From the sequence record MW464860.1: 60,753 bases of DNA, one strand, 5' to 3'. The position numbers were made by a program, and so were the translations under genes. This DNA comes from Enterobacter phage EC151. Under the pieces are notes generated by a model. The model saw only the letters and a list, made by a program, of their open reading frames with translations, made no database searches and had not been told where the DNA came from. The first letter of the stretch is position 1; every line of letters begins with the position of its first letter. Below are positions 7,703 to 24,678 of this stretch, in pieces.

Positions 7703-8674
7703 TTACGGCCTTTGTCCTATCAATACACCGCGGAAATTATGACCAAAGAAGGTGCAAGGGTTAGGATACAAGCTCATATCGGCGGTTTCCACATTGTCCT
7801 TGAGAAGCATCAACATCTCGAGGGCATAGATACCGTGAACCATATCCGTCTGCATGTTGTAAGACGCGCCTTCTGTTTCGTCCGCATGAGTCCGGACAGT
7901 TCCATTTTCAATATATACGCGACCGGCCTTGTCCGTAAACGGTTTAACTTTCTGCAACGCATCGAAAAGTGAAGGGTCGATTGTTTGCGGGTTACTTTGC
8001 ACGTTAAGAATGTTGTCAATGTTCAAAGGCCAACCGTTCTCCATCAAAGTGCTGCGCATCCAACAGCCCGACTCGTAATGGAACGTGATAGATGTCTTCG
8101 TTACTTGCGCTCGCACTGGTATTTCTTTAATCTTAACCAATGCCTCAACAGCTTCACTAGACAATACCACATCAATAGGGAATGGAGTACCAAACCAATA
8201 CTGAGCAATACAGACGTTATTAGTTGCGTAGGCTGAGCCGCCTTTAATGAGTACAGACATAGAAAATCGGCGAGAAGCATCAGTGCCGACAAAAGGACCA
8301 ACAGCTTTAAGAGCCGTGATAAGCTCCGTTCCGTTAATTTCATAAAACTCTCCTTCCGGGTCCACGTGCGCCGCAATCTTGTCAGTGCAAGGTATGTTGG
8401 CTTTAAATGCTCCGGACTTAATATTCAGCTTACCGTTAGCAAGCAGCGTTAACTGAGTCGCGTCCTCGCAGTTTGCTATTGCCTTAACCATGGGTATTGC
8501 TTCCGGCGCACACTCCACAGCTAATGGGATGGGCGCGGCCATTGCTATTACTCCATTGGTTGCACGGACCATTCCATCCTTGATCAGAAAGTGCGTAGCG
8601 CCCTCAACAAATGCGCGTTTACCAACTGCCGCAGATGCGAACTTCAGAGCTTCAAGCATCACGTAATTCCTCAC
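7703..8674 (-). CDS. hypothetical protein, possibly a beta-clamp-like processivity factor
   Basis: 323-aa ORF directly upstream of the pol gene (1-nt gap). The N-terminal pattern loosely resembles a sliding-clamp domain I. Weak. Confidence 0.35.
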   Translation of the reverse strand: MRNYVMLEALKFASAAVGKRAFVEGATHFLIKDGMVRATNGVIAMAAPIPLAVECAPEAIPMVKAIANCEDATQLTLLANGKLNIKSGAFKANIPCTDKIAAHVDPEGEFYEINGTELITALKAVGPFVGTDASRRFSMSVLIKGGSAYATNNVCIAQYWFGTPFPIDVVLSSEAVEALVKIKEIPVRAQVTKTSITFHYESGCWMRSTLMENGWPLNIDNILNVQSNPQTIDPSLFDALQKVKPFTDKAGRVYIENGTVRTHADETEGASYNMQTDMVHGIYALEMLMLLKDNVETADMSLYPNPCTFFGHNFRGVLIGQRP

Positions 8675-9071
8675 GTATCAGCATCAATAAACGACCGAGC
8701 ATGTTCTTACCACGGTCACCAACTTTACCCCAGTAAACATCACCCCAATGATTACCTTCAACCAGTTCCTCGTCACCCGTTGCTAATAATAAAGCTCTGA
8801 GTTCTGGTATTTCAAACTTGCGCTTTAAAAGGTCGTACATGACCGATACTTTGATTTTGTCCCAATCTTCCCTCATAGGACGTTTTCTAGCAGTACGCTT
8901 TGCGAGCCCTGGGCTAGGACATAACAACACGTCGAGCATATCTTGACCCTTTGTCATTTTCCACGCCTGAAAGGCATGTTCAACAGTCTGCGCTGTGATA
9001 CCGTTCCAACGAAACGGAGAAGGGTGAAAGTTGCTCAGGAACGCATATTCATCTTTGAATGAATTAATCAT
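8652..9071 (-). CDS. NADAR (YbiA-like) domain N-glycosidase
   Basis: Motifs YAFLSNFHPSPF, TVEHAFQAWK and NHWGDVYWG are typical of NADAR/DUF1768. The start overlaps the stop of the DpdA-like gene. Confidence 0.7.
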   Translation of the reverse strand: MINSFKDEYAFLSNFHPSPFRWNGITAQTVEHAFQAWKMTKGQDMLDVLLCPSPGLAKRTARKRPMREDWDKIKVSVMYDLLKRKFEIPELRALLLATGDEELVEGNHWGDVYWGKVGDRGKNMLGRLLMLIREELRDA

Positions 9072-9994
9072 TAGAATAGCTCCTGTATCTTCGGTTCAAA
9101 TATACGCGAATGTTTATCCTTGTTGATACGATCAGCAATCTGCCGATAACTCCACATGTTAAACGTTGCGCGTGTTTCGTATATTGTGGTTAAACGTTCC
9201 AAATCAAAACCCGACTCGGCGATAACGTTGTCGATATATTCTCTCTCCAATGGGTTAAGGGTGAGTACATGTCTACCGGCATCGTGAATGGTTCCGGCTT
9301 TTTCGGAAACCCTGTAAGGTACTCCGTCGGGGATAAACATTGACCCGTAGGCTCCGAACTGAATCCAGCTCGAAGAGTCGACACTATACCAAGGATATCG
9401 CTCCATGACACGGACGGAGGTGATACCGAAGGCGTGAAACTTAGCCTTAGGGCGGCCAGCTCCGTCGATGATGTATCTTTCCCAAATTCGGTCGAGCCAT
9501 ACAATAAGCTGTTCAACCGTCTTGCCAACCATTCCTCCGAGTGTGATGTAGGGGTATTTTGACATGTAGTATTCAAGATACTTTTCATCTTCTCCGAAGT
9601 GGAAACATGGAAGAGGAGTGACTCCTCTTGCTTCCATTTCCATTTGGTTCCGCCAAGTTTGAAGGGGATCTCCGATTCCATCCAGTACGGAGGCCATGAT
9701 AGTTCCGTCGTCCTTTCGGATGATGTCTTCATTTTCTTGAATGTAGCGGCAGTATCCAGGTAGGCTGATCGTTGCGCCCATGTTCCAAGCAGAGAAAGCC
9801 CCTGAGTCAAGGAACACCTGAGCTCCGTCGGCCCGCATTTCGTCAACATACTTTTGGCGGTTAACATAGTGGTAAGACTCCAGGATGTTTGGTATGGTGT
9901 CCACAATTTCAGCTTCGCGCTCGTTCAACTTAGGATAAGTCGATTGGCCTTTGCGAAAGCTGTTAGTGTACACCGCGGCAAGATATAGGTTCAT
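9071..9994 (-). CDS. dpdA: DpdA-like DNA-guanine transglycosylase (TGT superfamily)
   Basis: 307 aa. The FLDSGAF motif is analogous to TGT DSGGFQ, and the length and context match phage DpdA. It sits in a cluster with folE/queD/queC/queE. Confidence 0.65.
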   Translation of the reverse strand: MNLYLAAVYTNSFRKGQSTYPKLNEREAEIVDTIPNILESYHYVNRQKYVDEMRADGAQVFLDSGAFSAWNMGATISLPGYCRYIQENEDIIRKDDGTIMASVLDGIGDPLQTWRNQMEMEARGVTPLPCFHFGEDEKYLEYYMSKYPYITLGGMVGKTVEQLIVWLDRIWERYIIDGAGRPKAKFHAFGITSVRVMERYPWYSVDSSSWIQFGAYGSMFIPDGVPYRVSEKAGTIHDAGRHVLTLNPLEREYIDNVIAESGFDLERLTTIYETRATFNMWSYRQIADRINKDKHSRIFEPKIQELF

Positions 9995-10192
9995 TTATAC
10001 CTCGTTATCTGGACCTAAATTAATCAAATCACGCCACGCTTTATTAAAAGCATTTGAAACCGTTGATTGCGCTTGCACTAATTGGTCAATTAAGACATCA
10101 TTAGGCGCGTCGTTTTGAACGCAAGCAGAAGCGTCGACGGTGGCTGCTTTGAGTTCGTAAAAGATTTTTTCTAACTTTTGTTGTCTGTTCAT
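9995..10192 (-). CDS. hypothetical protein (65 aa)
   Basis: ORF tightly packed in the operon between the dpdA-like gene and folE. Confidence 0.4.
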   Translation of the reverse strand: MNRQQKLEKIFYELKAATVDASACVQNDAPNDVLIDQLVQAQSTVSNAFNKAWRDLINLGPDNEV

Positions 10193-10419
10193 TGTTTCAC
10201 CAATTCAAACCATTCGTTGATACGAGTTTCCAAAATACCTTTAGCGCTGTCAACGCTACTGAATGAGTTCGTACCCTTAGGTAAGCCCGGTAACAAGCAT
10301 TTACCGTCTAGCTTTGATCCGTCGTGCATAGGAACAATGACAGCGACTTTAATCTGGTTTATGTACGCAAATATAGCATCGCGATATTTATATTTACCAG
10401 AACGCCACGTGATCTGCAT
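10189..10419 (-). CDS. hypothetical protein (76 aa)
   Basis: ORF with overlapping start/stop with the downstream gene. Confidence 0.4.
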   Translation of the reverse strand: MQITWRSGKYKYRDAIFAYINQIKVAVIVPMHDGSKLDGKCLLPGLPKGTNSFSSVDSAKGILETRINEWFELVKQ

Positions 10420-10432
10420 TTCTTAACTCCAA

Positions 10433-10453
10433 TAAAAAAGGCCCCGTAGGGCC
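10433..10453 (-). terminator. rho-independent terminator (minus strand)
   Basis: On the minus strand: GGCCC-TACG-GGGCC followed by TTTTTTATT, directly downstream of folE. Confidence 0.7.
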
Positions 10454-10475
10454 TAATTATATACTACATTTTTGC

Positions 10476-11159
10476 TCACTTACAGGCTTCAAGGAACTCT
10501 TTCCGCCACATCAAACCTTCAGTCGACCAAAGCTGCTGAACCCCGGAGTAACGACCCGCAGTTTCGCCGCGGAAGGCTTTTGTTACGGTGCTAGAACCGC
10601 ATGACTGCTTAACGCCGCGGGATTCCATACACATATGGCGAGCGTCGATGTATACGCAAACGGCCAGGGGGTTCAGGTTTTCCCAAATAGCATCAGCAAT
10701 TTGATTGGTCAGTCTTTCCTGTACCTGAAGTCGACGAGCAAAAGCATCAACAACACGAGATAACTTACTGAGACCAACAATCTTCCCATTGGGAACATAA
10801 CCAACAGTGGCGCGACCGATAATAGGTGCCATGTGATGCTCGCAATGAGAGTAAACCGGAATATCACGAACAATAACCAGCTCATTGGTACCTTCCGCGC
10901 CGTCTTCAAACACTTTAAACAGTTCGGAGATATCAACTTTATATCCGCCGAACCAGGTTTCGTAGGCTTTCGCGACACGATCAGGAGTCTCGATAAGGCC
11001 CGGGCGCAGAAGCATACCTTCAGAGCCGCCTTCAATAACATTCAGGATAGCGCTGATATGATAAGCGATTTCGTCACGTTGCGGGTGTTCGAAATCTGCT
11101 TCTGCTTTAATACCTTCGAGTTTTAACTGTTCCATTATTTGGTGTACTCCACGTGACAT
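10476..11159 (-). CDS. folE: GTP cyclohydrolase I
   Basis: Motifs ETPDRVAKA, VYSHCEHHMAPIIG and GLSKLSRVVD...QVQERLT closely match FolE. Confidence 0.9.
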   Translation of the reverse strand: MSRGVHQIMEQLKLEGIKAEADFEHPQRDEIAYHISAILNVIEGGSEGMLLRPGLIETPDRVAKAYETWFGGYKVDISELFKVFEDGAEGTNELVIVRDIPVYSHCEHHMAPIIGRATVGYVPNGKIVGLSKLSRVVDAFARRLQVQERLTNQIADAIWENLNPLAVCVYIDARHMCMESRGVKQSCGSSTVTKAFRGETAGRYSGVQQLWSTEGLMWRKEFLEACK

Positions 11160-11689
11160 TTCGATGTTTCTTCAATGCGGCAAGCAATCAGCTCAACACC
11201 GTAAGGGTCGAGCAGCTCTGGCCCGATAACATTGACCATATGAGCGGCCAGGTTTTCCGCCGTAGGGTTGAACGGCAGTGATACCAGCGAACCAAAATAA
11301 GCATCAGTATGCTCGCAAGGATCTTGTTCTCCAGTTGCAATTTCGTGATGAATACACTGGCGAACTTTTTTGAACAACGGATCATTTTCCCAATGCAGGA
11401 AACGGTGATCCCAATTGTTCTCAAGCCATTCGCAGAGCGTAGACTTAACAACACTGAAATCAATAACGCGACCCAGGTCGTCGAGCTTAGTGCGCTCAGG
11501 GCTTTCTAATTGCATAACAGCCGAAGAGCCTTCAGTGATCGGCACTGTTACAGCACGTTTTTCACGTTTCGGTGCGACTTCGAAGTGAAACACGTAATTG
11601 TGGCCATGCAGGTGACGACATTTGCTTTCGTGGCCTACTACACGGTGACCCGCGCAAATTTCATGAGTACGAATTACTTTTACTGACAT
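11135..11689 (-). CDS. queD: 6-carboxy-5,6,7,8-tetrahydropterin synthase
   Basis: CxxxHGH motif (CAGHRVVGHESKCRHLHGHNY) and IDFSVVK...DHRFL. There is a C-terminal extension of about 60 aa. Confidence 0.8.
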   Translation of the reverse strand: MSVKVIRTHEICAGHRVVGHESKCRHLHGHNYVFHFEVAPKREKRAVTVPITEGSSAVMQLESPERTKLDDLGRVIDFSVVKSTLCEWLENNWDHRFLHWENDPLFKKVRQCIHHEIATGEQDPCEHTDAYFGSLVSLPFNPTAENLAAHMVNVIGPELLDPYGVELIACRIEETSKCHVEYTK

Positions 11690-11730
11690 TGTTATTACCT
11701 CAGTTGAAGCCTTCCCTGGCTAGCCCATTA

Positions 11731-12216
11731 TTAGGCGACTGTTACGCCGTTCCGTTTACGGCCTTCGTAGATGACATATAGTACAGCCGACGCAAGGAAT
11801 TTGGAAACACTCATTGCAATGATCGAACCCCACGAAGCGAAGCCAATCATATGCAGGAAGATAAATGAATCCACCGGAACCGCAACCAACGAACTAATCA
11901 CGACACGTTGATGGAAAGGCTTTTTCGTGATCGTGAAGATAGTATAATCCAGTAGCTCGCTCACTGCAAATGAAGTCACAGATGCCACTACCACGACCGG
12001 ATCACCCAGGAACCAGCTTATAACGCAAGCCAACGCTATAGCCCACAGTACGTGGTGGCCAGCGCTACGCTGCGCATAGTCCCGCAGGACAAACACACAG
12101 CCCACGAAGAACGCCATAAGCGGCACAGGGCCTAACGGAGTGGCTACAATCGGCAGATAACTGAAGCCCAGGTTTACAAACACTACCATCAACAAATAAG
12201 CGACGATGTATTTCAT
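11731..12216 (-). CDS. small polytopic membrane protein, possibly YhhQ/QueT-like 7-deazaguanine precursor transporter (DUF165-like)
   Basis: 161 aa with 4-5 predicted TM helices inside the queuosine-precursor cluster. Loose similarity to YhhQ conserved segments. Shorter than canonical YhhQ. Confidence 0.4.
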   Translation of the reverse strand: MKYIVAYLLMVVFVNLGFSYLPIVATPLGPVPLMAFFVGCVFVLRDYAQRSAGHHVLWAIALACVISWFLGDPVVVVASVTSFAVSELLDYTIFTITKKPFHQRVVISSLVAVPVDSFIFLHMIGFASWGSIIAMSVSKFLASAVLYVIYEGRKRNGVTVA

Positions 12217-12413
12217 TTTAAATCACCTTTATCAAAAAGGCCTGGGCCTTTGATTTTATCTGAGCTAGATCGTTGAAATACTAATTGCACTTCAACGCCC
12301 TTGTAAGTAAAGATGTGATACCCTTCCGCGGAGAAGCATTTAGGTTCTTTCGAAAATATACTTACCCGATCTTCAATAAATTTAGGAAGGTTTTCCAGTT
12401 TCCTTTTCGGCAT
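12213..12413 (-). CDS. hypothetical small protein (66 aa)
   Basis: The ATG at 12413 has a strong AGGAGAAGG RBS. Its stop overlaps the downstream gene start (ATGA). Confidence 0.4.
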   Translation of the reverse strand: MPKRKLENLPKFIEDRVSIFSKEPKCFSAEGYHIFTYKGVEVQLVFQRSSSDKIKGPGLFDKGDLK

Positions 12414-13134
12414 TAACCTTCTCCTGATGTTGGAATAATGCACGTTCAACGGAGGACAGAATATCAATTAAGTCCTGTTCGTAGTCTTTGTGTCCGCGCT
12501 TGCCTGTAGCCAGAAGTTTCTTCAGGGCATGTTGCAACGCGCCAGACGTTACTTCAAAACAATCAATCACGTCGTAAACATCAATAAAAACTCCGGGCTT
12601 GATTTCGCGCTTATATTTGTCGTTAGCATAGAACGGGCCAACGTCAGGCTCTAAGCCAGCCTTATACAGTTCCGCTTGAGTGAGCGGGCCTTTGCTAAAG
12701 CATTGGCGTAACGCTTCATCAGCAGACATACATTCAGGAGCGTCCATTGCCAGCTCTTTAAAGTGATTAGTCTTATAATCAACAATATTATTAACAGGAG
12801 CAGGAGGTAGAACACCAACATGGCTGGACAGGCGCCAGCAATGGATGCCGTTTTCAGGATAAGTTTCAATCGACGACATCACATTATATTCGAGTTTGAC
12901 GTGTACATCGTTGATATTAACATCTGTGAAGATCTTCCCGTCGTTAGTTTGCACATCAAAGTGAAAACCTAAACGGTGCAGATAGTTTAAAGCATTGATA
13001 GAAGTGCGCTGACCGTTGAAGCCAGTATTGTGAATTGCTACCCAACCATCATCACCAACATTACCACGTAACTCAGGATAATACTGGAGCAATGTCAGTT
13101 CAGGTGCCATTACTTTGCGTTTGTTCGTTTGCAT
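12382..13134 (-). CDS. hypothetical protein (250 aa) in the 7-deazaguanine cluster
   Basis: Long ORF between queC and the membrane protein. No recognisable motifs: no P-loop, no SAM motif, no QueF motif. Confidence 0.5.
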   Translation of the reverse strand: MQTNKRKVMAPELTLLQYYPELRGNVGDDGWVAIHNTGFNGQRTSINALNYLHRLGFHFDVQTNDGKIFTDVNINDVHVKLEYNVMSSIETYPENGIHCWRLSSHVGVLPPAPVNNIVDYKTNHFKELAMDAPECMSADEALRQCFSKGPLTQAELYKAGLEPDVGPFYANDKYKREIKPGVFIDVYDVIDCFEVTSGALQHALKKLLATGKRGHKDYEQDLIDILSSVERALFQHQEKVNAEKETGKPS

Positions 13135-13169
13135 GTTAGCTCCTAGGCGCGTCCTTGCGCCACGATCGG

Positions 13170-13904
13170 TTAGAATTTAAAAGGGTTAGCTTCTACAAAG
13201 GCTTCGAAACCAGCCGCGCGGAGTTTACAAGCAGGGCACTCGCCGCAGCCATAGCCCCACACAAAGTTGGTATTGTGGTCACCATTGTAGCAGGTGTGAC
13301 TATCTTCTAACACAACCGTTAAGAAGTCAACTGCTTTCGCGAGTGCGAACGTTTCGGCTTTGTTTAACCACATTAACGGCGTAACAATGCGAATATCAGT
13401 TTGATAACCGATATTCAGCGACTTCGTTAAATGCTTAATAAACACGTCGCGGCAGTCAGGATAGCCGGAATAATCCGTTTCGCATACGCCAGTGATAAGC
13501 GTGTCCGCACCAACCTTCTGCGCATAGGCATGAGCGATAGTAAGAAATAGCGCGTTGCGGTTGGGCACAAAGGAGGCCGGGAGGTTAGCATTCTGAGCGT
13601 GGCGCTCGTTAACATCTTTTTGCTCGGACCCGCGGATCAGCGCACTATTACCAATCTGAGCCAGCGCAGGGATTTCAAACACGTCAAACGGTACGCCGTG
13701 TTCTGCGCAGATTTTAGCGGCGCAATGAATTTCAACTTCATGCTTCTGGCCATAGGAAAAGGCTACAGCGTGAACCTGGTCGAACTTGCGCAAAGCAAGC
13801 CCTAAGCAAGTCACGGAGTCCTGGCCGCCAGACAGGACAACAACGGCGGATTTACCTTCAGTTTCGCTAATTACCAGATCAACTTTCTCTTTAGATACGT
13901 TCAT
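13170..13904 (-). CDS. queC: 7-cyano-7-deazaguanine (preQ0) synthase
   Basis: PP-loop motif VVLSGGQDS. The C-terminal Zn-binding cysteines CYNGD...GCGECPACKLR match stand-alone QueC. Confidence 0.85.
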   Translation of the reverse strand: MNVSKEKVDLVISETEGKSAVVVLSGGQDSVTCLGLALRKFDQVHAVAFSYGQKHEVEIHCAAKICAEHGVPFDVFEIPALAQIGNSALIRGSEQKDVNERHAQNANLPASFVPNRNALFLTIAHAYAQKVGADTLITGVCETDYSGYPDCRDVFIKHLTKSLNIGYQTDIRIVTPLMWLNKAETFALAKAVDFLTVVLEDSHTCYNGDHNTNFVWGYGCGECPACKLRAAGFEAFVEANPFKF

Positions 13905-13905
13905 A

Positions 13906-14352
13906 TCAATACTCCATCAGTTTTTCGAGTGTTACTTCAACAACGGTGCCGGCTTTACAACTCCAGCGGAGGTACTTCTTATCAATCTTACGACCATGAA
14001 CCACGCCAAGCTGGTTCGCTTCGAACTCCAGCTCGCTGATCTTATTATGATGCCATAAAGCGTGTGGAGCATCACAGTACCAGCGAGTTACAACACCTTT
14101 ATTATTCTCCACTAAATAGTGAAGTAAAAGGGTTTCAGCAGACGTACCACTACCTTCATCAGCAACAACACCGAATAAGGTTGTGCGTTGCATACCGCGA
14201 CCTTCAGTAAGGTCTGGTGAGTGGTTAACTCTGAAGAAGGCCAAGTTCTTTTTCAGCTTACTATAATGAGCCTCCCACTCTTTGCAGTCTTGTTCAGATG
14301 TGAACTCACGCCCATCGTCAGAGATGAATACAGGCTGATTAACTTGTCTCAT
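13906..14352 (-). CDS. hypothetical protein (148 aa)
   Basis: ORF between queC and queE, translationally close to both (2-nt gaps). Confidence 0.5.
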   Translation of the reverse strand: MRQVNQPVFISDDGREFTSEQDCKEWEAHYSKLKKNLAFFRVNHSPDLTEGRGMQRTTLFGVVADEGSGTSAETLLLHYLVENNKGVVTRWYCDAPHALWHHNKISELEFEANQLGVVHGRKIDKKYLRWSCKAGTVVEVTLEKLMEY

Positions 14353-14354
14353 AG

Positions 14355-15056
14355 CTACTCCACATTGAGTAATTTATGTATCTGAAGCTGAACTGTATAG
14401 TTATGCTTCATTGCGCTCGCCAGGACCGCGGCAATGTTATCAGCATTGTAACCTGCGTCTTGCTCGTCCATCGGCTGTAGATATATCTTACCCTTAAATG
14501 ACTTAGGAGGTCTCGCGATAAATGGCGTGGCGCGGTGATCGAGGGCTTGCAACGGTAAGCCGTCCTCCGCGTGTACGCTATCCGCCTTCATCACATACTT
14601 AAAGGCATTGGCACGGTGCAGGGCGCTAGGATGCAATTTAGCGGTTTTAGGAGAACACACAACCGTGACCATTTGCGATAGCTCCAGCGGAATTTGCATA
14701 GAGCCATTAGTTTCGATTTGTACGTCGAAATCGTTTTGAATCAGGAAGTCTGCGAACGGTGCAATGTTTTGACGGAAAGGCTCGCCACCGGAAATGACAA
14801 TCAGATTAGCGTTGCTGCTAGTAGCCATTAAACGCTCTTCGATGTTTTGAAGAATGTCTGCGTAGTTTAAGCGAACACGATTAGCAGTGTATTCAGTATC
14901 ACAACCAGGACACTGGAGATTACAGCCAGCGAGGCGGACAAATACAGCAGGACGACCGCAGAAAGGGCCTTCACCTTGAATGGTACTAAAAATGGAATGA
15001 ACTTCGAGGGTAGATTGATAATCTTTCTTTTCAGGAATCTGAGTATTCAGCTTCAT
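14355..15056 (-). CDS. queE: 7-carboxy-7-deazaguanine synthase (radical SAM)
   Basis: Motifs IQGEG, GCNLQCPGCDTEY (the Cx3Cx2C-type cluster motif), ISGGEP and IETNGS. Confidence 0.85.
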   Translation of the reverse strand: MKLNTQIPEKKDYQSTLEVHSIFSTIQGEGPFCGRPAVFVRLAGCNLQCPGCDTEYTANRVRLNYADILQNIEERLMATSSNANLIVISGGEPFRQNIAPFADFLIQNDFDVQIETNGSMQIPLELSQMVTVVCSPKTAKLHPSALHRANAFKYVMKADSVHAEDGLPLQALDHRATPFIARPPKSFKGKIYLQPMDEQDAGYNADNIAAVLASAMKHNYTVQLQIHKLLNVE

Positions 15057-15100
15057 GGTTTTATCCCTGTTTCCTAGGCGGTAGGCCAGATTGTGGGTGG

Positions 15101-15189
15101 TGGCGGATAGTATCCGATTCGAACGGATGGAGCCTTGCGACTCGTCTGGTTAGCAACCAGGTGCCTTAGACCAACTCAGCCAACTATCC
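15101..15189 (-). tRNA. tRNA-Ser (anticodon GCU)
   Basis: Hand-folded from the minus strand: GGATAGT acceptor stem, anticodon loop TTGCTAA, long variable arm GACGAGTCGCAAGGCTC, T-loop GTTCGAATC and 3' GCCA. Total 89 nt. Confidence 0.8.
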
Positions 15190-15195
15190 TTTAGT

Positions 15196-15231
15196 GAAAA
15201 TAAAAGCGCCCGAAATGGGGCGCTTTTATTA
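15196..15231. terminator. bidirectional rho-independent terminator
   Basis: AAAATAAAA-GCGCCC-GAAAT-GGGCGC-TTTTATT, with A-run and T-run on both sides. It separates the upstream KA-rich protein gene from the tRNA. Confidence 0.75.
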
Positions 15232-15249
15232 TAGGCGATTACTGGGTGA

Positions 15250-16014
15250 TCAGTCCAGCAGTCCGGTAGGCAGCGGAACAGCAACACGACCTTCGATACC
15301 GTTGAATTTCTTCCAGCGCGCGTACTGGGTTTTAACGGTGTCATAGTTCAGGCCTTTCTGCTCAGCCGCCTGCAACAGAATACTGATCGGAACAGGCTGA
15401 CCGAGTTTAGCGGACAGTTGATCCATCAGCGCCCAGGCGTTACCGCAAGCGGTATCAGGACGAGGGCGAGTGATGTCGTTCTGTTTCGGCATTGCATTAG
15501 CTGCTTTCGCTTCTTCTTTCAGACGCTTCTGTTCAGCTTTTTCGGCTTCTTTCTGAGCGCGTTTCGCTTCAGAAACTTTGCCTTTCACGCCTTTCAGCGC
15601 TTCGTCCAGGCCAGTTACCAGACCTTCGGCAGTGGTTACAGCTACGGCCAGTTCACCCGGCTCTTTCACTTTCTTAACCTGCGCTTTGATCACTTTCAGT
15701 GATTCGCGAGCAGATTTCAGCGACGCGCCAGCTTGTTCACCAGCAGTGTTAACCTGCTCAACAGTGCTGTCAGCAACCAGGGAAGCCAGGGACGCTTTAC
15801 CAGCATCAACGTGGCCTTGCAGAGTAGTGAACTCAGCGGATACCGCAGCAGTCACTTCAGCCAGCTTGTTAGCATCGGCCTGAGCTTTTTGATCGGCTTT
15901 AGCCTGATCTTTCTGCTCTTTTTCCAGTTTCGCTTTTTCAGCAGCGTCTTTTTTCGCCTGAGCTGCTTTCGCTTTTTTCTCTTCAGGTGTCAGTTCAACT
16001 TTGTTATCTTCCAT
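15250..16014 (-). CDS. lysine/alanine-rich coiled-coil protein, putative DNA-binding (histone H1-like linker)
   Basis: The ATG at 16014 has GGAG 8 nt upstream. It has a long KA/E-rich region and a C-terminal domain ending TVKTQYARWKKFNG. It is paralogous to the ORF at 32852..33472. Confidence 0.5.
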   Translation of the reverse strand: MEDNKVELTPEEKKAKAAQAKKDAAEKAKLEKEQKDQAKADQKAQADANKLAEVTAAVSAEFTTLQGHVDAGKASLASLVADSTVEQVNTAGEQAGASLKSARESLKVIKAQVKKVKEPGELAVAVTTAEGLVTGLDEALKGVKGKVSEAKRAQKEAEKAEQKRLKEEAKAANAMPKQNDITRPRPDTACGNAWALMDQLSAKLGQPVPISILLQAAEQKGLNYDTVKTQYARWKKFNGIEGRVAVPLPTGLLD

Positions 16015-24117: not shown

Positions 24118-24678
24118 TTACTTCTCCAGATGGCGTGAGCCCATGATAGGAGAACCTTCCGGTTCATACATAACAGCACAAGGACCCTCATGACCTTTAG
24201 CCCTGGAGCATTTAGCATTTTCGATAGGGGATTTATCGCAATGTTTGCTATCGGTGGAGCCGAATCCGTTAGCGCCGCGCTCGCCTTCTACTTGCACCCG
24301 GTTCACTTCTTCCAGGACTGTGAACGGACGATAGATCAGCATAGCCTGGGCAATAGCTTTACCATGAGGTTGGAGATATGTTTCATCTCCGTCGTTACGC
24401 AGACCTACCATAATAACGCCACCATAGTCCTGATCGATAACACCAGTACCGTTTACCAGCGTCACCTGGCTGTTGAAGCCCTGCCCGCTACGGCTAAACA
24501 CCAGCAAAACGTGGTCATTAGGGATTTGAGCAATCAGACCAGTGCTTACACGCTTCCATTCACCTGGTTTGATTTCTACATCTTCCAGCGCAAAGAGGTC
24601 AAAACAGGCGGAATCTTTCGTGCCACGTTTAGGCATAATAGCACGAAGATCAGTTCTTTGAATCTTTAAAGTAGGCAT
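24118..24678 (-). CDS. dut: dUTP diphosphatase with a Cys-rich C-terminal extension
   Basis: Motifs SACFDL, RSGQG, GVIDQDYGG and GERGANGFGSTD. There are about 40 extra C-terminal residues with 4 Cys. Confidence 0.8.
   Translation of the reverse strand: MPTLKIQRTDLRAIMPKRGTKDSACFDLFALEDVEIKPGEWKRVSTGLIAQIPNDHVLLVFSRSGQGFNSQVTLVNGTGVIDQDYGGVIMVGLRNDGDETYLQPHGKAIAQAMLIYRPFTVLEEVNRVQVEGERGANGFGSTDSKHCDKSPIENAKCSRAKGHEGPCAVMYEPEGSPIMGSRHLEK

What the first reader, a model, noticed from the sequence alone, without database searches (positions are those of the whole stretch)
8652..15189. Complete preQ0 (7-deazaguanine) DNA hypermodification module with extra unassigned members
FolE, QueD, QueE and a stand-alone QueC give a full GTP-to-preQ0 pathway. 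With a DpdA-like transglycosylase, the phage is predicted to replace genomic dG by 2'-deoxy-preQ0. This is the CAjan-type chemistry, not the Gat-QueC / dG+ type. The operon also holds a NADAR glycosidase, a truncated YhhQ-like membrane protein, and ORFs of 250, 148, 76, 66 and 65 aa with no recognisable family. These are candidates for additional or novel steps such as base processing, targeting or salvage.
Basis: partly seen in the sequence, partly recalled or inferred. Interest (0 to 1): 0.75.

Follow-up and report, generated by a model that had tools for sequence, protein, structure and literature searches.

The report
Published phage preQ0 DNA-modification gene cluster
This is the known gene cluster that lets Enterobacter phage EC151 swap guanine in its DNA for 7-cyano-7-deazaguanine (preQ0) to escape restriction enzymes; it was published for this genome in 2021, and most of the extra small genes look like unrelated passengers.

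Summary
FolE, QueD, QueE, a stand-alone QueC and a DpdA1-type DNA transglycosylase lie head to tail on the minus strand at 9071-15056.

It is not new. The window is the 60,753-bp genome of Enterobacter phage EC151 (MW464860). Its proteins match GenBank QSL98914-QSL98921 exactly. Morozova et al. 2021 (PMC8310023) described this cluster, predicted dPreQ0 and showed restriction resistance.

The "extra members" idea mostly fails:
- NADAR, the 148-aa ORF, the 65-aa ORF and the 66-aa ORF come and go among close relatives.
- The NADAR is YbiA-family and occurs in 517 phage records, including T5-like phages. It is best read as an independent guanine-ADP-ribose hydrolase or N-glycosidase.
- The YhhQ-like protein is not truncated. 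It is a compact phage subfamily, 64% identical to CAjan YhhQ, which is dispensable for modification.
- No DpdL, DpdM, DpdN, QueF, Gat or ArcS was found.

Two things remain open. The N-terminal, ankyrin-like domain of the 250-aa ORF is found only inside Queuovirinae deazaguanine clusters. The published KpnI/Acc65I resistance does not fit the CAjan GA/GGC motifs.

Verdict: already known, low interest.

The parts
8652..9071 (-). NADAR protein of the YbiA family (139 aa; GenBank QSL98914 'swarming motility protein'). Probably an independent accessory or anti-defence gene, not part of the preQ0 pathway.
   Evidence: Pfam NADAR 1.1e-23. TIGR02464 84.4 bits against a cut-off of 73.7. E. coli YbiA structure 2b3w E=8.9e-23, with the Glu of 'LVE' conserved. 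Found in 517 phage records, including T5-like phages. Present in only 1 of 5 EC151-like loci plus L013.
9071..9994 (-). DpdA1-type DNA guanine transglycosylase (307 aa; QSL98915). It inserts preQ0 into DNA.
   Evidence: phrog_887 4.8e-81. 60% identical to the DpdA of Iggy, Seuratvirus Skure and Vid5 over the full length. Invariant FLDSGAFSA (D63), GGMVG and DSSSW (D206) motifs. Only 16.6 bits to bacterial DpdA NF041059, against a cut-off of 200.
9995..10192 (-). orf65, a small protein of unknown function, not annotated in GenBank.
   Evidence: phrog_20065 7.3e-23. Homologue directly upstream of dpdA in 21 Seuratvirus phages including CAjan, and also in Serratia phiMAM1-like phages. Present in only 1 of 5 EC151-like loci. 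dN/dS 0.105.
10189..10419 (-). orf76, a small protein of unknown function, not annotated in GenBank. Conserved upstream of dpdA in the EC151-like lineage.
   Evidence: No family hit. Present in all 5 EC151-like loci that cover the region, at 51-97% identity. dN/dS 0.04-0.11. 4-nt ATGA overlap with orf65.
10439..10454 (-). Terminator-like GC-rich hairpin followed by a T run, between FolE and orf76.
   Evidence: AGGCCCTACGGGGCCT TTTTTATTGG, 6 pairs of which 5 are G-C; the top-listed site in the scan. Consensus match only.
10476..11159 (-). FolE, GTP cyclohydrolase I (227 aa).
   Evidence: Pfam 1.3e-59. NF006825 197.7 bits against a cut-off of 174.
11135..11689 (-). QueD, 6-carboxytetrahydropterin synthase (184 aa, with a ~60-aa insertion).
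   Evidence: Pfam PTPS 6.3e-22. CxxxHGH motif present at C24, so it is QueD and not DpdL.
11731..12216 (-). Compact YhhQ/Vut_1-like membrane protein (161 aa; QSL98918 'putative transporter'). Putative preQ0 importer.
   Evidence: Vut_1 6.6e-06, 27.0 bits against a gathering score of 27.2. TIGR00697 0.0018. phrog_4899 3.9e-39. Several hydrophobic TM-like segments spanning the protein. 64% identical to CAjan YhhQ; 75 phage records at 147-161 aa. CAjan delta-yhhQ stays modified.
12213..12467 (-). orf66/84, a doubtful small ORF (66 aa from ATG at 12413, 84 aa from TTG).
   Evidence: No family hit. Overlaps the 3' end of orf250. Found in 2 of 6 EC151-like loci, and K4PH164 has a different gene in this slot. 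Too few substitutions to judge selection.
12382..13134 (-). orf250 (QSL98919, hypothetical): an N-terminal ankyrin-like domain restricted to the cluster, a disordered linker, and a widespread small phage C-terminal domain.
   Evidence: AF2 pLDDT 81, two domains at residues 1-110 and 170-246. N-domain: only about 12 short relatives among 1.84 billion representatives, and all those that could be placed lie in Queuovirinae deazaguanine clusters; weak ankyrin-repeat resemblance. C-domain: 759 phage records and at least 1696 metagenomic proteins, no Pfam family, weak SaV-like/DUF3310 fold hits. Present in all 6 EC151-like loci.
13170..13904 (-). QueC, preQ0 synthase, stand-alone (244 aa; QSL98920).
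   Evidence: Pfam QueC 1.4e-74. TIGR00364 242.8 bits against a cut-off of 150.3. SGGQDS motif. 67% identical to Seuratvirus QueC but only 29-33% to the Gat-QueC or long QueC of Vid5 and Iggy.
13906..14352 (-). orf148, a lineage-restricted gene of unknown function, not annotated in GenBank.
14355..15056 (-). QueE, 7-carboxy-7-deazaguanine synthase, radical SAM (233 aa; QSL98921).
   Evidence: phrog_2076 4.9e-61. Best NCBIfam hit is QueE TIGR04322 at 8.9e-29, below its equivalog cut-off. CNLQCPGC cluster motif.
15101..15189 (-). tRNA-Ser (anticodon GCU), immediately upstream of QueE.
   Evidence: ARAGORN. Rfam tRNA 47.9 bits. Also present in K4PH164 and reported in the EC151 paper.

Best explanation
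The locus is the Seuratvirus-type dPreQ0 DNA-modification module of Enterobacter cloacae phage EC151. It sits inside the replication gene block, between the helicase and the clamp and polymerase genes.

Inferred from well-characterised families: FolE converts GTP to H2NTP, QueD makes CPH4, the radical-SAM enzyme QueE makes CDG, and QueC makes preQ0.

Inferred from 60% identity to DpdA1 proteins tested in CAjan and Iggy: the DpdA1 transglycosylase then exchanges guanine for preQ0 in double-stranded phage DNA after replication. This makes the DNA refractory to host restriction enzymes.

The compact YhhQ-like membrane protein may import exogenous preQ0, but it is probably dispensable.

The remaining ORFs are not demonstrable pathway steps. 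NADAR is an independent YbiA-family hydrolase, most likely removing ADP-ribose from guanine in DNA as a counter-defence. orf148, orf65 and orf66 are variable inserts between core genes. orf250 and orf76 are lineage-conserved non-enzymatic-looking proteins of unknown role.
For: Identity with the published genome:
- Same length (60,753 bp) and the same single tRNA-Ser-GCT.
- Exact protein matches to QSL98914, 98915, 98918, 98920 and 98921, and to the EC151 hypothetical protein P0001.

Enzyme assignments.

DpdA1 homology and conserved Asp motifs.

Experimental support in relatives:
- CAjan has dPreQ0 at about 32% of its G residues, and this is abolished in a dpdA deletion (PMC6884629).
- The folE, queC and dpdA deletions lose the modified signal, whereas the yhhQ deletion does not (PMC7544227).
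- Iggy carries dPreQ0 (PMC10484667).

EC151 DNA itself resists Acc65I, KpnI, ApaI and XmaI, is partly cut by SalI, and is cut by DraI (PMC8310023).

No QueF, Gat, ArcS, DpdL, DpdM or DpdN was found in the cluster or in the other early genes scanned. No riboswitch was found.

The presence/absence matrix separates a core gene set from variable inserts.
Against: - No nucleoside mass spectrometry exists for EC151, so dPreQ0 is predicted and not measured.
- Published resistance at GGTACC sites does not fit the GA/GGC motifs of the CAjan DpdA. The specificity, or even the final chemistry, may therefore differ.
- DpdA has no Pfam hit and no PDB sequence match. Its assignment rests on PHROG and on homology to tested phage DpdA1 proteins.
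- The N-terminal domain of orf250 is confined to these clusters, so a functional link cannot be excluded.
- The NADAR role is inferred from family biochemistry only.
Confidence: 0.85

Rival explanations
1. One or more conserved unassigned genes (the orf250 N-terminal domain, orf76) are true accessory components of the deazaguanine system. For example, they could be protein-binding partners that tune DpdA target choice or efficiency, or that protect the pathway from a host factor.
For: - orf250 and orf76 are present in every EC151-like locus examined.
- The N-domain family has only about 12 short representatives among 1.84 billion proteins.
- Every N-domain homologue that could be placed lies inside a Queuovirinae deazaguanine cluster. 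The slots differ: QueC|x|YhhQ in L013 and L014, and QueE|x|Gat-QueC in L011 and in Klebsiella phage vB_Kpn2-P2.
- EC151's restriction pattern differs from what the CAjan motifs predict.
Against: - All carriers are related Queuovirinae, so co-location may simply be inherited synteny.
- The domain is absent, at HMM level, from Seuratvirus, Iggy and Vid5, which modify their DNA without it.
- It has no catalytic signature. Its only resemblance is to ankyrin repeats, at 6-10 bits per repeat with no Pfam hit.
- The C-terminal domain of orf250 is common in phages without dpdA.
Confidence: 0.15
2. The NADAR protein belongs to the pathway as an N-glycosidase. It would act on GTP-derived ribosylaminopyrimidine intermediates, or release or salvage 7-deazaguanine bases.
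For: - It is YbiA-family and passes the TIGR02464 'riboflavin biosynthesis intermediates N-glycosidase' domain cut-off.
- It matches E. coli YbiA at 8.9e-23.
- It abuts dpdA with a 1-nt overlap.
- YbiA substrates are GTP-derived (established knowledge, cited in PMC11125620).
Against: - It is absent from K4PH164, L005, L008, L009 and L014, although their DpdA is 85-95% identical.
- Homologues occur in 517 phage records dominated by Streptomyces, Vibrio, Bacillus and T5-like phages, and no link to dpdA is evident.
- YbiA-family NADARs hydrolyse guanine-ADP-ribose in DNA, and one is an antitoxin (PMC11125620).
- Diverse phage NADARs neutralise DarT1 (PMC11825919).
Confidence: 0.07
3. The final DNA base is not dPreQ0 but another derivative (dADG, dCDG or an unknown one), made by QueC stalling or by an unrecognised enzyme among the unknown ORFs.
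For: - No mass spectrometry has been done on EC151.
- Phages with similar gene sets can carry minor dADG (PMC6884629).
- Restriction resistance appears broader than expected from the CAjan motifs.
Against: - QueC passes the equivalog cut-off and is 67% identical to Seuratvirus QueC, whose phage carries dPreQ0 with less than 6 per million dADG.
- No amidotransferase, QueF, DpdC-like, DpdL, DpdM or DpdN was detected.
- orf148 and orf250 show no enzyme-like fold.
Confidence: 0.08

Closest known systems
The deazaguanine cluster of Enterobacter phage EC151 itself (MW464860; Morozova et al. 2021, Viruses 13:1372, PMC8310023)
   Same: Identical sequence. The paper describes the same six genes (folE, queD, queC, queE, dpdA and a preQ0 transporter), makes the same dPreQ0 prediction, and reports restriction resistance.
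   Different: The paper and the GenBank record do not call orf148, orf76, orf65 or orf66. They label NADAR a 'swarming motility protein' and do not discuss orf250.
Seuratvirus (CAjan, Seurat, Skure) dPreQ0 module with DpdA1
   Same: Same enzyme set with a stand-alone QueC, a short YhhQ homologue (64-65% identical) and the orf65 homologue upstream of dpdA. Core enzymes are 60-75% identical. A protein carrying the same C-terminal domain as orf250 sits within the cluster.
   Different: Gene order around YhhQ differs. Seuratvirus lacks NADAR, orf148, orf76, the orf250 N-domain and the tRNA-Ser. CAjan modifies GA and GGC, whereas EC151's reported KpnI resistance suggests another or a wider motif.
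Klebsiella phage vB_Ko_K4PH164 (OY979482, unclassified Queuovirinae)
   Same: The nearest sequenced relative found in the phage collection searched: about 80% nucleotide identity over the cluster, DpdA 95% identical, and the same order including orf250, YhhQ-like, orf76 and tRNA-Ser.
   Different: It lacks NADAR, orf148, orf65 and orf66, and has other small ORFs in those slots.
Nonagvirus / Vidquintavirus dG+ modules (9g, Vid5) with Gat-QueC
   Same: Same FolE, QueD, QueE and DpdA1 backbone and the same synteny within the replication block.
   Different: Their QueC is fused to a glutamine amidotransferase and the product is dG+. EC151 QueC has no Gat domain.
YbiA-family NADAR hydrolases and phage AdfN anti-DarT1 factors
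   Same: NADAR fold with the YbiA-type Glu. The family hydrolyses N2-guanine ADP-ribose in DNA, and phage NADARs neutralise DarT1.
   Different: The tested phage AdfN proteins are of the T4 gp30.3, archaeal-like or non-YbiA bacterial types. E. coli YbiA did not rescue DarT1 toxicity in vivo. The EC151 protein is untested.

Membership tests
Phage dPreQ0 DNA-modification module (CAjan/Seuratvirus type) | Complete preQ0 pathway: FolE, QueD (CxxxHGH), QueE (radical SAM) and QueC | tested here: met
   FolE and QueC pass curated NCBIfam cut-offs. QueD and QueE pass at the Pfam or PHROG level with their motifs present.
Phage dPreQ0 DNA-modification module (CAjan/Seuratvirus type) | DpdA1-subfamily DNA transglycosylase | tested here: met
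   phrog_887 4.8e-81. 60% full-length identity to the DpdA of Iggy, Skure and Vid5. Invariant Asp-containing motifs. Fold not modelled; no PDB sequence hit.
Phage dPreQ0 DNA-modification module (CAjan/Seuratvirus type) | No enzyme that converts preQ0 further (Gat-QueC, ArcS, QueF, DpdC, DpdL/M/N) | tested here: met
   QueC is 244 aa without a GATase domain. QueD keeps the Cys that DpdL lacks, and no ORF has CxxxCxxCC. No such family among the other early genes scanned or in the K4PH164 annotation. Small or novel enzymes cannot be excluded.
Phage dPreQ0 DNA-modification module (CAjan/Seuratvirus type) | dPreQ0 present in virion DNA | not testable with these tools
   Only indirect evidence: published resistance to G/C-site restriction enzymes.
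Bacterial DpdA (NF041059 / PADLOC DpdA) | Score above the curated equivalog cut-off | tested here: not met
   16.6 bits against a cut-off of 200; PADLOC DpdA 16.5 bits. It is a phage DpdA1, not a bDpdA.
YhhQ / Vut_1 queuosine-precursor transporter | Profile match above the curated threshold; polytopic membrane protein | tested here: inconclusive
   Vut_1 27.0 bits against a gathering score of 27.2. TIGR00697 18.1 bits against 50.95. Several hydrophobic TM-like segments spanning the protein. 64% identical to the protein annotated as YhhQ in CAjan. Transport not tested.
NADAR superfamily, YbiA family | NADAR domain above the gathering score; Glu in the last strand | tested here: met
   Pfam 84.7 bits against 35.1. 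TIGR02464 84.4 bits against 73.7. Alignment to YbiA 2b3w keeps 'LVE'. Which Glu is the family-defining residue was inferred from that alignment.
AdfN-type anti-DarT1 counter-defence | Removes guanine ADP-ribose from phage DNA and rescues the phage from DarTG1 | not testable with these tools
   Family-level biochemistry only.
DpdL / DpdM / DpdN | DpdL is a QueD paralogue lacking the Cys; DpdM is DUF3109 with CxxxCxxCC; DpdN is a formyltransferase | tested here: not met
   Definitions from PMC10516641. No unknown ORF has the motifs or any Pfam hit.
Ankyrin repeat (orf250 N-domain) | Pfam Ank match; helix-turn-helix repeat fold | tested here: inconclusive
   No Pfam Ank hit even at E<=10. The family profile hits giant ankyrin proteins only through many 6-10-bit repeats. 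The AF2 model shows a mixed alpha/beta domain.

The most novel reading that the evidence does not exclude
The small ankyrin-like N-terminal domain of orf250, also found as a stand-alone 114-160-aa protein in other Queuovirinae, is a dedicated accessory of 7-deazaguanine DNA-modification clusters. EC151's DpdA, alone or with this partner, targets a wider or different motif set than CAjan's GA/GGC, which would explain the reported protection of GGTACC sites.
Probability: 0.12. Interest if true: 0.45.

Novelty: already known. Interest (0 to 1): 0.15.

Why it matters
7-Deazaguanine DNA modification is an established way for phages to evade restriction enzymes. This locus adds nothing to that picture, because the cluster, its predicted product and the restriction phenotype were published for this exact phage in 2021.

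The residual value is in annotation and small leads:
- Four genes in the cluster are missing from the GenBank record.
- The NADAR gene is mislabelled and is probably a separate guanine-directed counter-defence.
- One small domain family appears confined to these clusters.
- The published restriction data hint that DpdA target motifs vary among phages whose DpdA proteins are 60% identical. This would matter for using these enzymes as sequence-specific DNA-modifying tools.

Tried and rejected
- MW464860 is not in the annotated phage collection. Identity was established through exact protein look-ups instead.
- The afdb50 library was unavailable.
- BFVD gave only uncharacterised phage proteins and weak SaV-like/DUF3310/'nucleotide kinase' hits for the orf250 C-domain. 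DUF3310 membership was not confirmed: Pfam finds nothing in any of 31 family members, and no precomputed Pfam domain appears on the 120 best of 1696 relatives.
- PADLOC gave nothing useful for the unknown ORFs.
- DpdA, as a single sequence and as a profile, found no PDB relative by sequence.
- The Rfam scan found no preQ1 riboswitch or other RNA apart from the tRNA.
- The idea that the YhhQ-like gene is a truncated remnant was rejected: its length and sequence are conserved under dN/dS 0.03-0.1.
- The idea that QueD might be DpdL was rejected: the Cys is present.
- The idea that QueC might be Gat-QueC or the ADG-synthase variant was rejected.
- The orf250 N-domain was not detectable in Seuratvirus, Iggy or Vid5.

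Full report
**What the window is.** The window is 60,753 bp and carries one tRNA gene, tRNA-Ser(GCU), at 15101-15189 on the minus strand. A literature search on DpdA, preQ0 and CAjan returned a paper on Enterobacter cloacae phage EC151. That genome is also 60,753 bp and also has a single tRNA-Ser-GCT. Exact-sequence look-ups settle the identity. The window's NADAR, DpdA, YhhQ-like, QueC and QueE proteins are GenBank QSL98914, QSL98915, QSL98918, QSL98920 and QSL98921 of EC151. The 250-aa ORF is 100% identical to an EC151 hypothetical protein on a 60,753-bp contig. The record itself (MW464860) is not in the annotated phage collection. The nearest relative there is Klebsiella phage vB_Ko_K4PH164, an unclassified Queuovirinae, at about 80% nucleotide identity over the cluster.

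**The observation.**
- FolE: Pfam 1.3e-59.
- QueD: PTPS 6.3e-22, with the CxxxHGH motif.
- QueC: Pfam 1.4e-74; TIGR00364 242.8 bits against a cut-off of 150.3; 244 aa with no amidotransferase domain.
- QueE: phrog_2076 4.9e-61, with a CxxxCxxC motif.

These assignments are secure. The 307-aa protein has no Pfam hit and scores only 16.6 bits against bacterial DpdA. However, it hits phrog_887 at 4.8e-81. It is also 60% identical over its full length to the DpdA of Iggy, Seuratvirus and Vid5, with invariant FLDSGAFSA, GGMVG and DSSSW motifs. It is therefore a DpdA1-subfamily enzyme, as that subfamily is defined in PMC10516641.

**How it works.** The first four steps follow from established knowledge of the families. 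FolE, QueD, QueE and QueC convert GTP to preQ0. DpdA then exchanges guanine for preQ0 in phage DNA after replication.

Experimental support comes from relatives:
- CAjan carries dPreQ0 at about 32% of its G residues, and none in a dpdA deletion (PMC6884629).
- In CAjan, the folE, queC and dpdA deletions lose the modified signal, but the yhhQ deletion does not (PMC7544227).
- Iggy also carries dPreQ0.

For EC151 itself, Morozova et al. reported that the DNA resists Acc65I, KpnI, ApaI and XmaI, is only slightly cut by SalI, and is cut by DraI. I found no QueF, GATase, ArcS, DpdL, DpdM or DpdN in the cluster or in the other early genes scanned. I also found no riboswitch. dPreQ0 therefore remains the best prediction. 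It has never been measured for this phage.

**The 'extra members'.** I compared EC151 with six loci of the same lineage, in which DpdA is 90-100% identical where it is covered. These were K4PH164 and five metagenomic contigs. I added two sister contigs (DpdA 85% identical), Seuratvirus Skure, Iggy and Vid5.

Present wherever the region is covered: QueE, QueC, orf250, the YhhQ-like gene, QueD, FolE, orf76 and DpdA.

Sporadic:
- NADAR: 1 of 5 lineage loci, plus one sister contig.
- orf148: 1 of 6.
- orf65: 1 of 5, plus Seuratvirus.
- orf66/84: 2 of 6.

All of these are real genes under purifying selection, although orf66 has too few substitutions to judge. The GenBank accession numbers are consecutive and leave no slot for orf148, orf76, orf65 or orf66, so these are unannotated in the record. 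The literature already notes that hypothetical genes are interspersed in Queuovirinae deazaguanine clusters (PMC10484667).

**NADAR.** The protein is a YbiA-family NADAR:
- It passes the TIGR02464 cut-off.
- It matches the E. coli YbiA structure at 8.9e-23.
- The Glu of the last strand is conserved.

Homologues occur in 517 phage records, including T5-like, Streptomyces, Vibrio and Bacillus phages, with no evident link to dpdA. NADARs, including YbiA-family members, hydrolyse ADP-ribose from the N2 of guanine in DNA. Several unrelated phage NADARs neutralise the DarT1 defence toxin. The most likely role is therefore an independent counter-defence or repair function. A role in the preQ0 pathway is unlikely, given its patchy presence.

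**YhhQ-like protein.** It is not truncated. 75 phage records carry homologues, nearly all at full length. It is 64% identical to CAjan YhhQ, and dN/dS is 0.03-0.1. Its match to Vut_1 and TIGR00697 falls just below or well below the curated thresholds. The transporter assignment is therefore plausible but unproven, and the CAjan homologue is dispensable for modification.

**orf250.** The model (pLDDT 81) shows two domains joined by a disordered linker.

The C-terminal domain (residues about 170-243) occurs in 759 phage records, mostly Salmonella and Escherichia phage records of about 41-48 kb in the sample listed. It also occurs in at least 1696 metagenomic proteins, usually as a stand-alone protein of 68-150 aa. 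It belongs to no Pfam family and has only weak fold-level resemblance to SaV-like/DUF3310 proteins. Seuratvirus has a 189-aa cluster protein with the same C-domain.

The N-terminal domain is different. tblastn finds it only in K4PH164 among 50,697 phage records. An exhaustive profile search of 1.84 billion representative proteins found about a dozen short relatives, plus giant ankyrin-repeat proteins that score through many weak repeats. Every short relative that I could place lies inside a Queuovirinae deazaguanine cluster:
- between QueC and YhhQ (L013, L014);
- before YhhQ (L015);
- after QueE (L012);
- between QueE and Gat-QueC (L011, and the cultured Klebsiella phages vB_Kpn2-P2 and K9PH25C2 and Escherichia phage Ec1-ASingh).

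The domain is absent at HMM level from Skure, Iggy and Vid5. It is therefore not required for modification, and its co-location may be inherited synteny. It is still the only unassigned element with a cluster-specific distribution.

**An unexplained point.** The window has seven GGTACC sites. None contains GA or GGC, the motifs modified in CAjan, and CAjan DNA is cut at GGT-containing BstEII sites. Yet EC151 DNA was reported uncut by KpnI and Acc65I. This hints that EC151 DpdA has a different or wider target motif, or that another modification is present. It cannot be resolved from sequence alone.

**Transcription.** A strong terminator-like hairpin (10439-10454) lies between FolE and orf76. 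A promoter-like site (15228-15257) lies upstream of the tRNA. These are consensus matches only. They caution against calling the whole interval one operon.

**Verdict.** The core interpretation is correct, but it was already published for this exact genome. The suggestion of novel extra pathway steps is not supported for most of the ORFs. Novelty: already known. Interest is low, with two minor leads: the orf250 N-domain and the DpdA motif specificity.

Noticed in passing
window sites at 10887, 23887, 42631, 46584, 50038, 50374 and 55657 (GGTACC): None of the seven KpnI/Acc65I sites contains GA or GGC, the motifs modified by the CAjan DpdA. The EC151 paper nevertheless reports no cutting by these enzymes, and CAjan DNA is cut at GGT-containing BstEII sites. 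EC151 DpdA may have a different or wider target motif.
   Followed up: partly
window 12802-13134 (-), residues 1-110 of orf250; also L011:6001-6345, L013:6001-6357, L012:1607-2089 and L015:67-720: A small ankyrin-like domain family has only about 12 short representatives among 1.84 billion proteins. Every one I could place lies inside a Queuovirinae 7-deazaguanine cluster, of both the QueC and the Gat-QueC type.
   Followed up: partly
window 13906-14352, 10189-10419, 9995-10192 and 12213-12413 (all minus strand): Four ORFs in the cluster (148, 76, 65 and 66 aa) have no place in the consecutive GenBank protein numbering of EC151, so they are unannotated. The first three are clearly under purifying selection in relatives.
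   Followed up: yes
window 10439-10454 (-): A GC-rich hairpin followed by TTTTT lies between FolE and orf76. It is a possible intrinsic terminator or attenuator that splits the preQ0-synthesis genes from the dpdA sub-block.
   Followed up: no
window 15101-15189 (-): A tRNA-Ser(GCU) gene sits immediately upstream of queE and is conserved in K4PH164. Ser-tRNA is not a queuosine-modified tRNA, so there is no obvious link to the pathway.
   Followed up: no
window 24118-24678 (-): A dUTPase-family protein (Pfam 8.3e-18). K4PH164 annotates a 'pyrophosphatase' in the same replication block, but I did not check whether the two are orthologues. It is another nucleotide-pool enzyme in the replication module.
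   Followed up: no
window 8652-9071 (-): GenBank labels this gene 'swarming motility protein'. It is a YbiA-family NADAR about 49% identical to NADARs of T5-like phages. Published phage anti-DarT1 NADARs are described as non-YbiA types, so a YbiA-type phage NADAR would be worth testing.
   Followed up: partly
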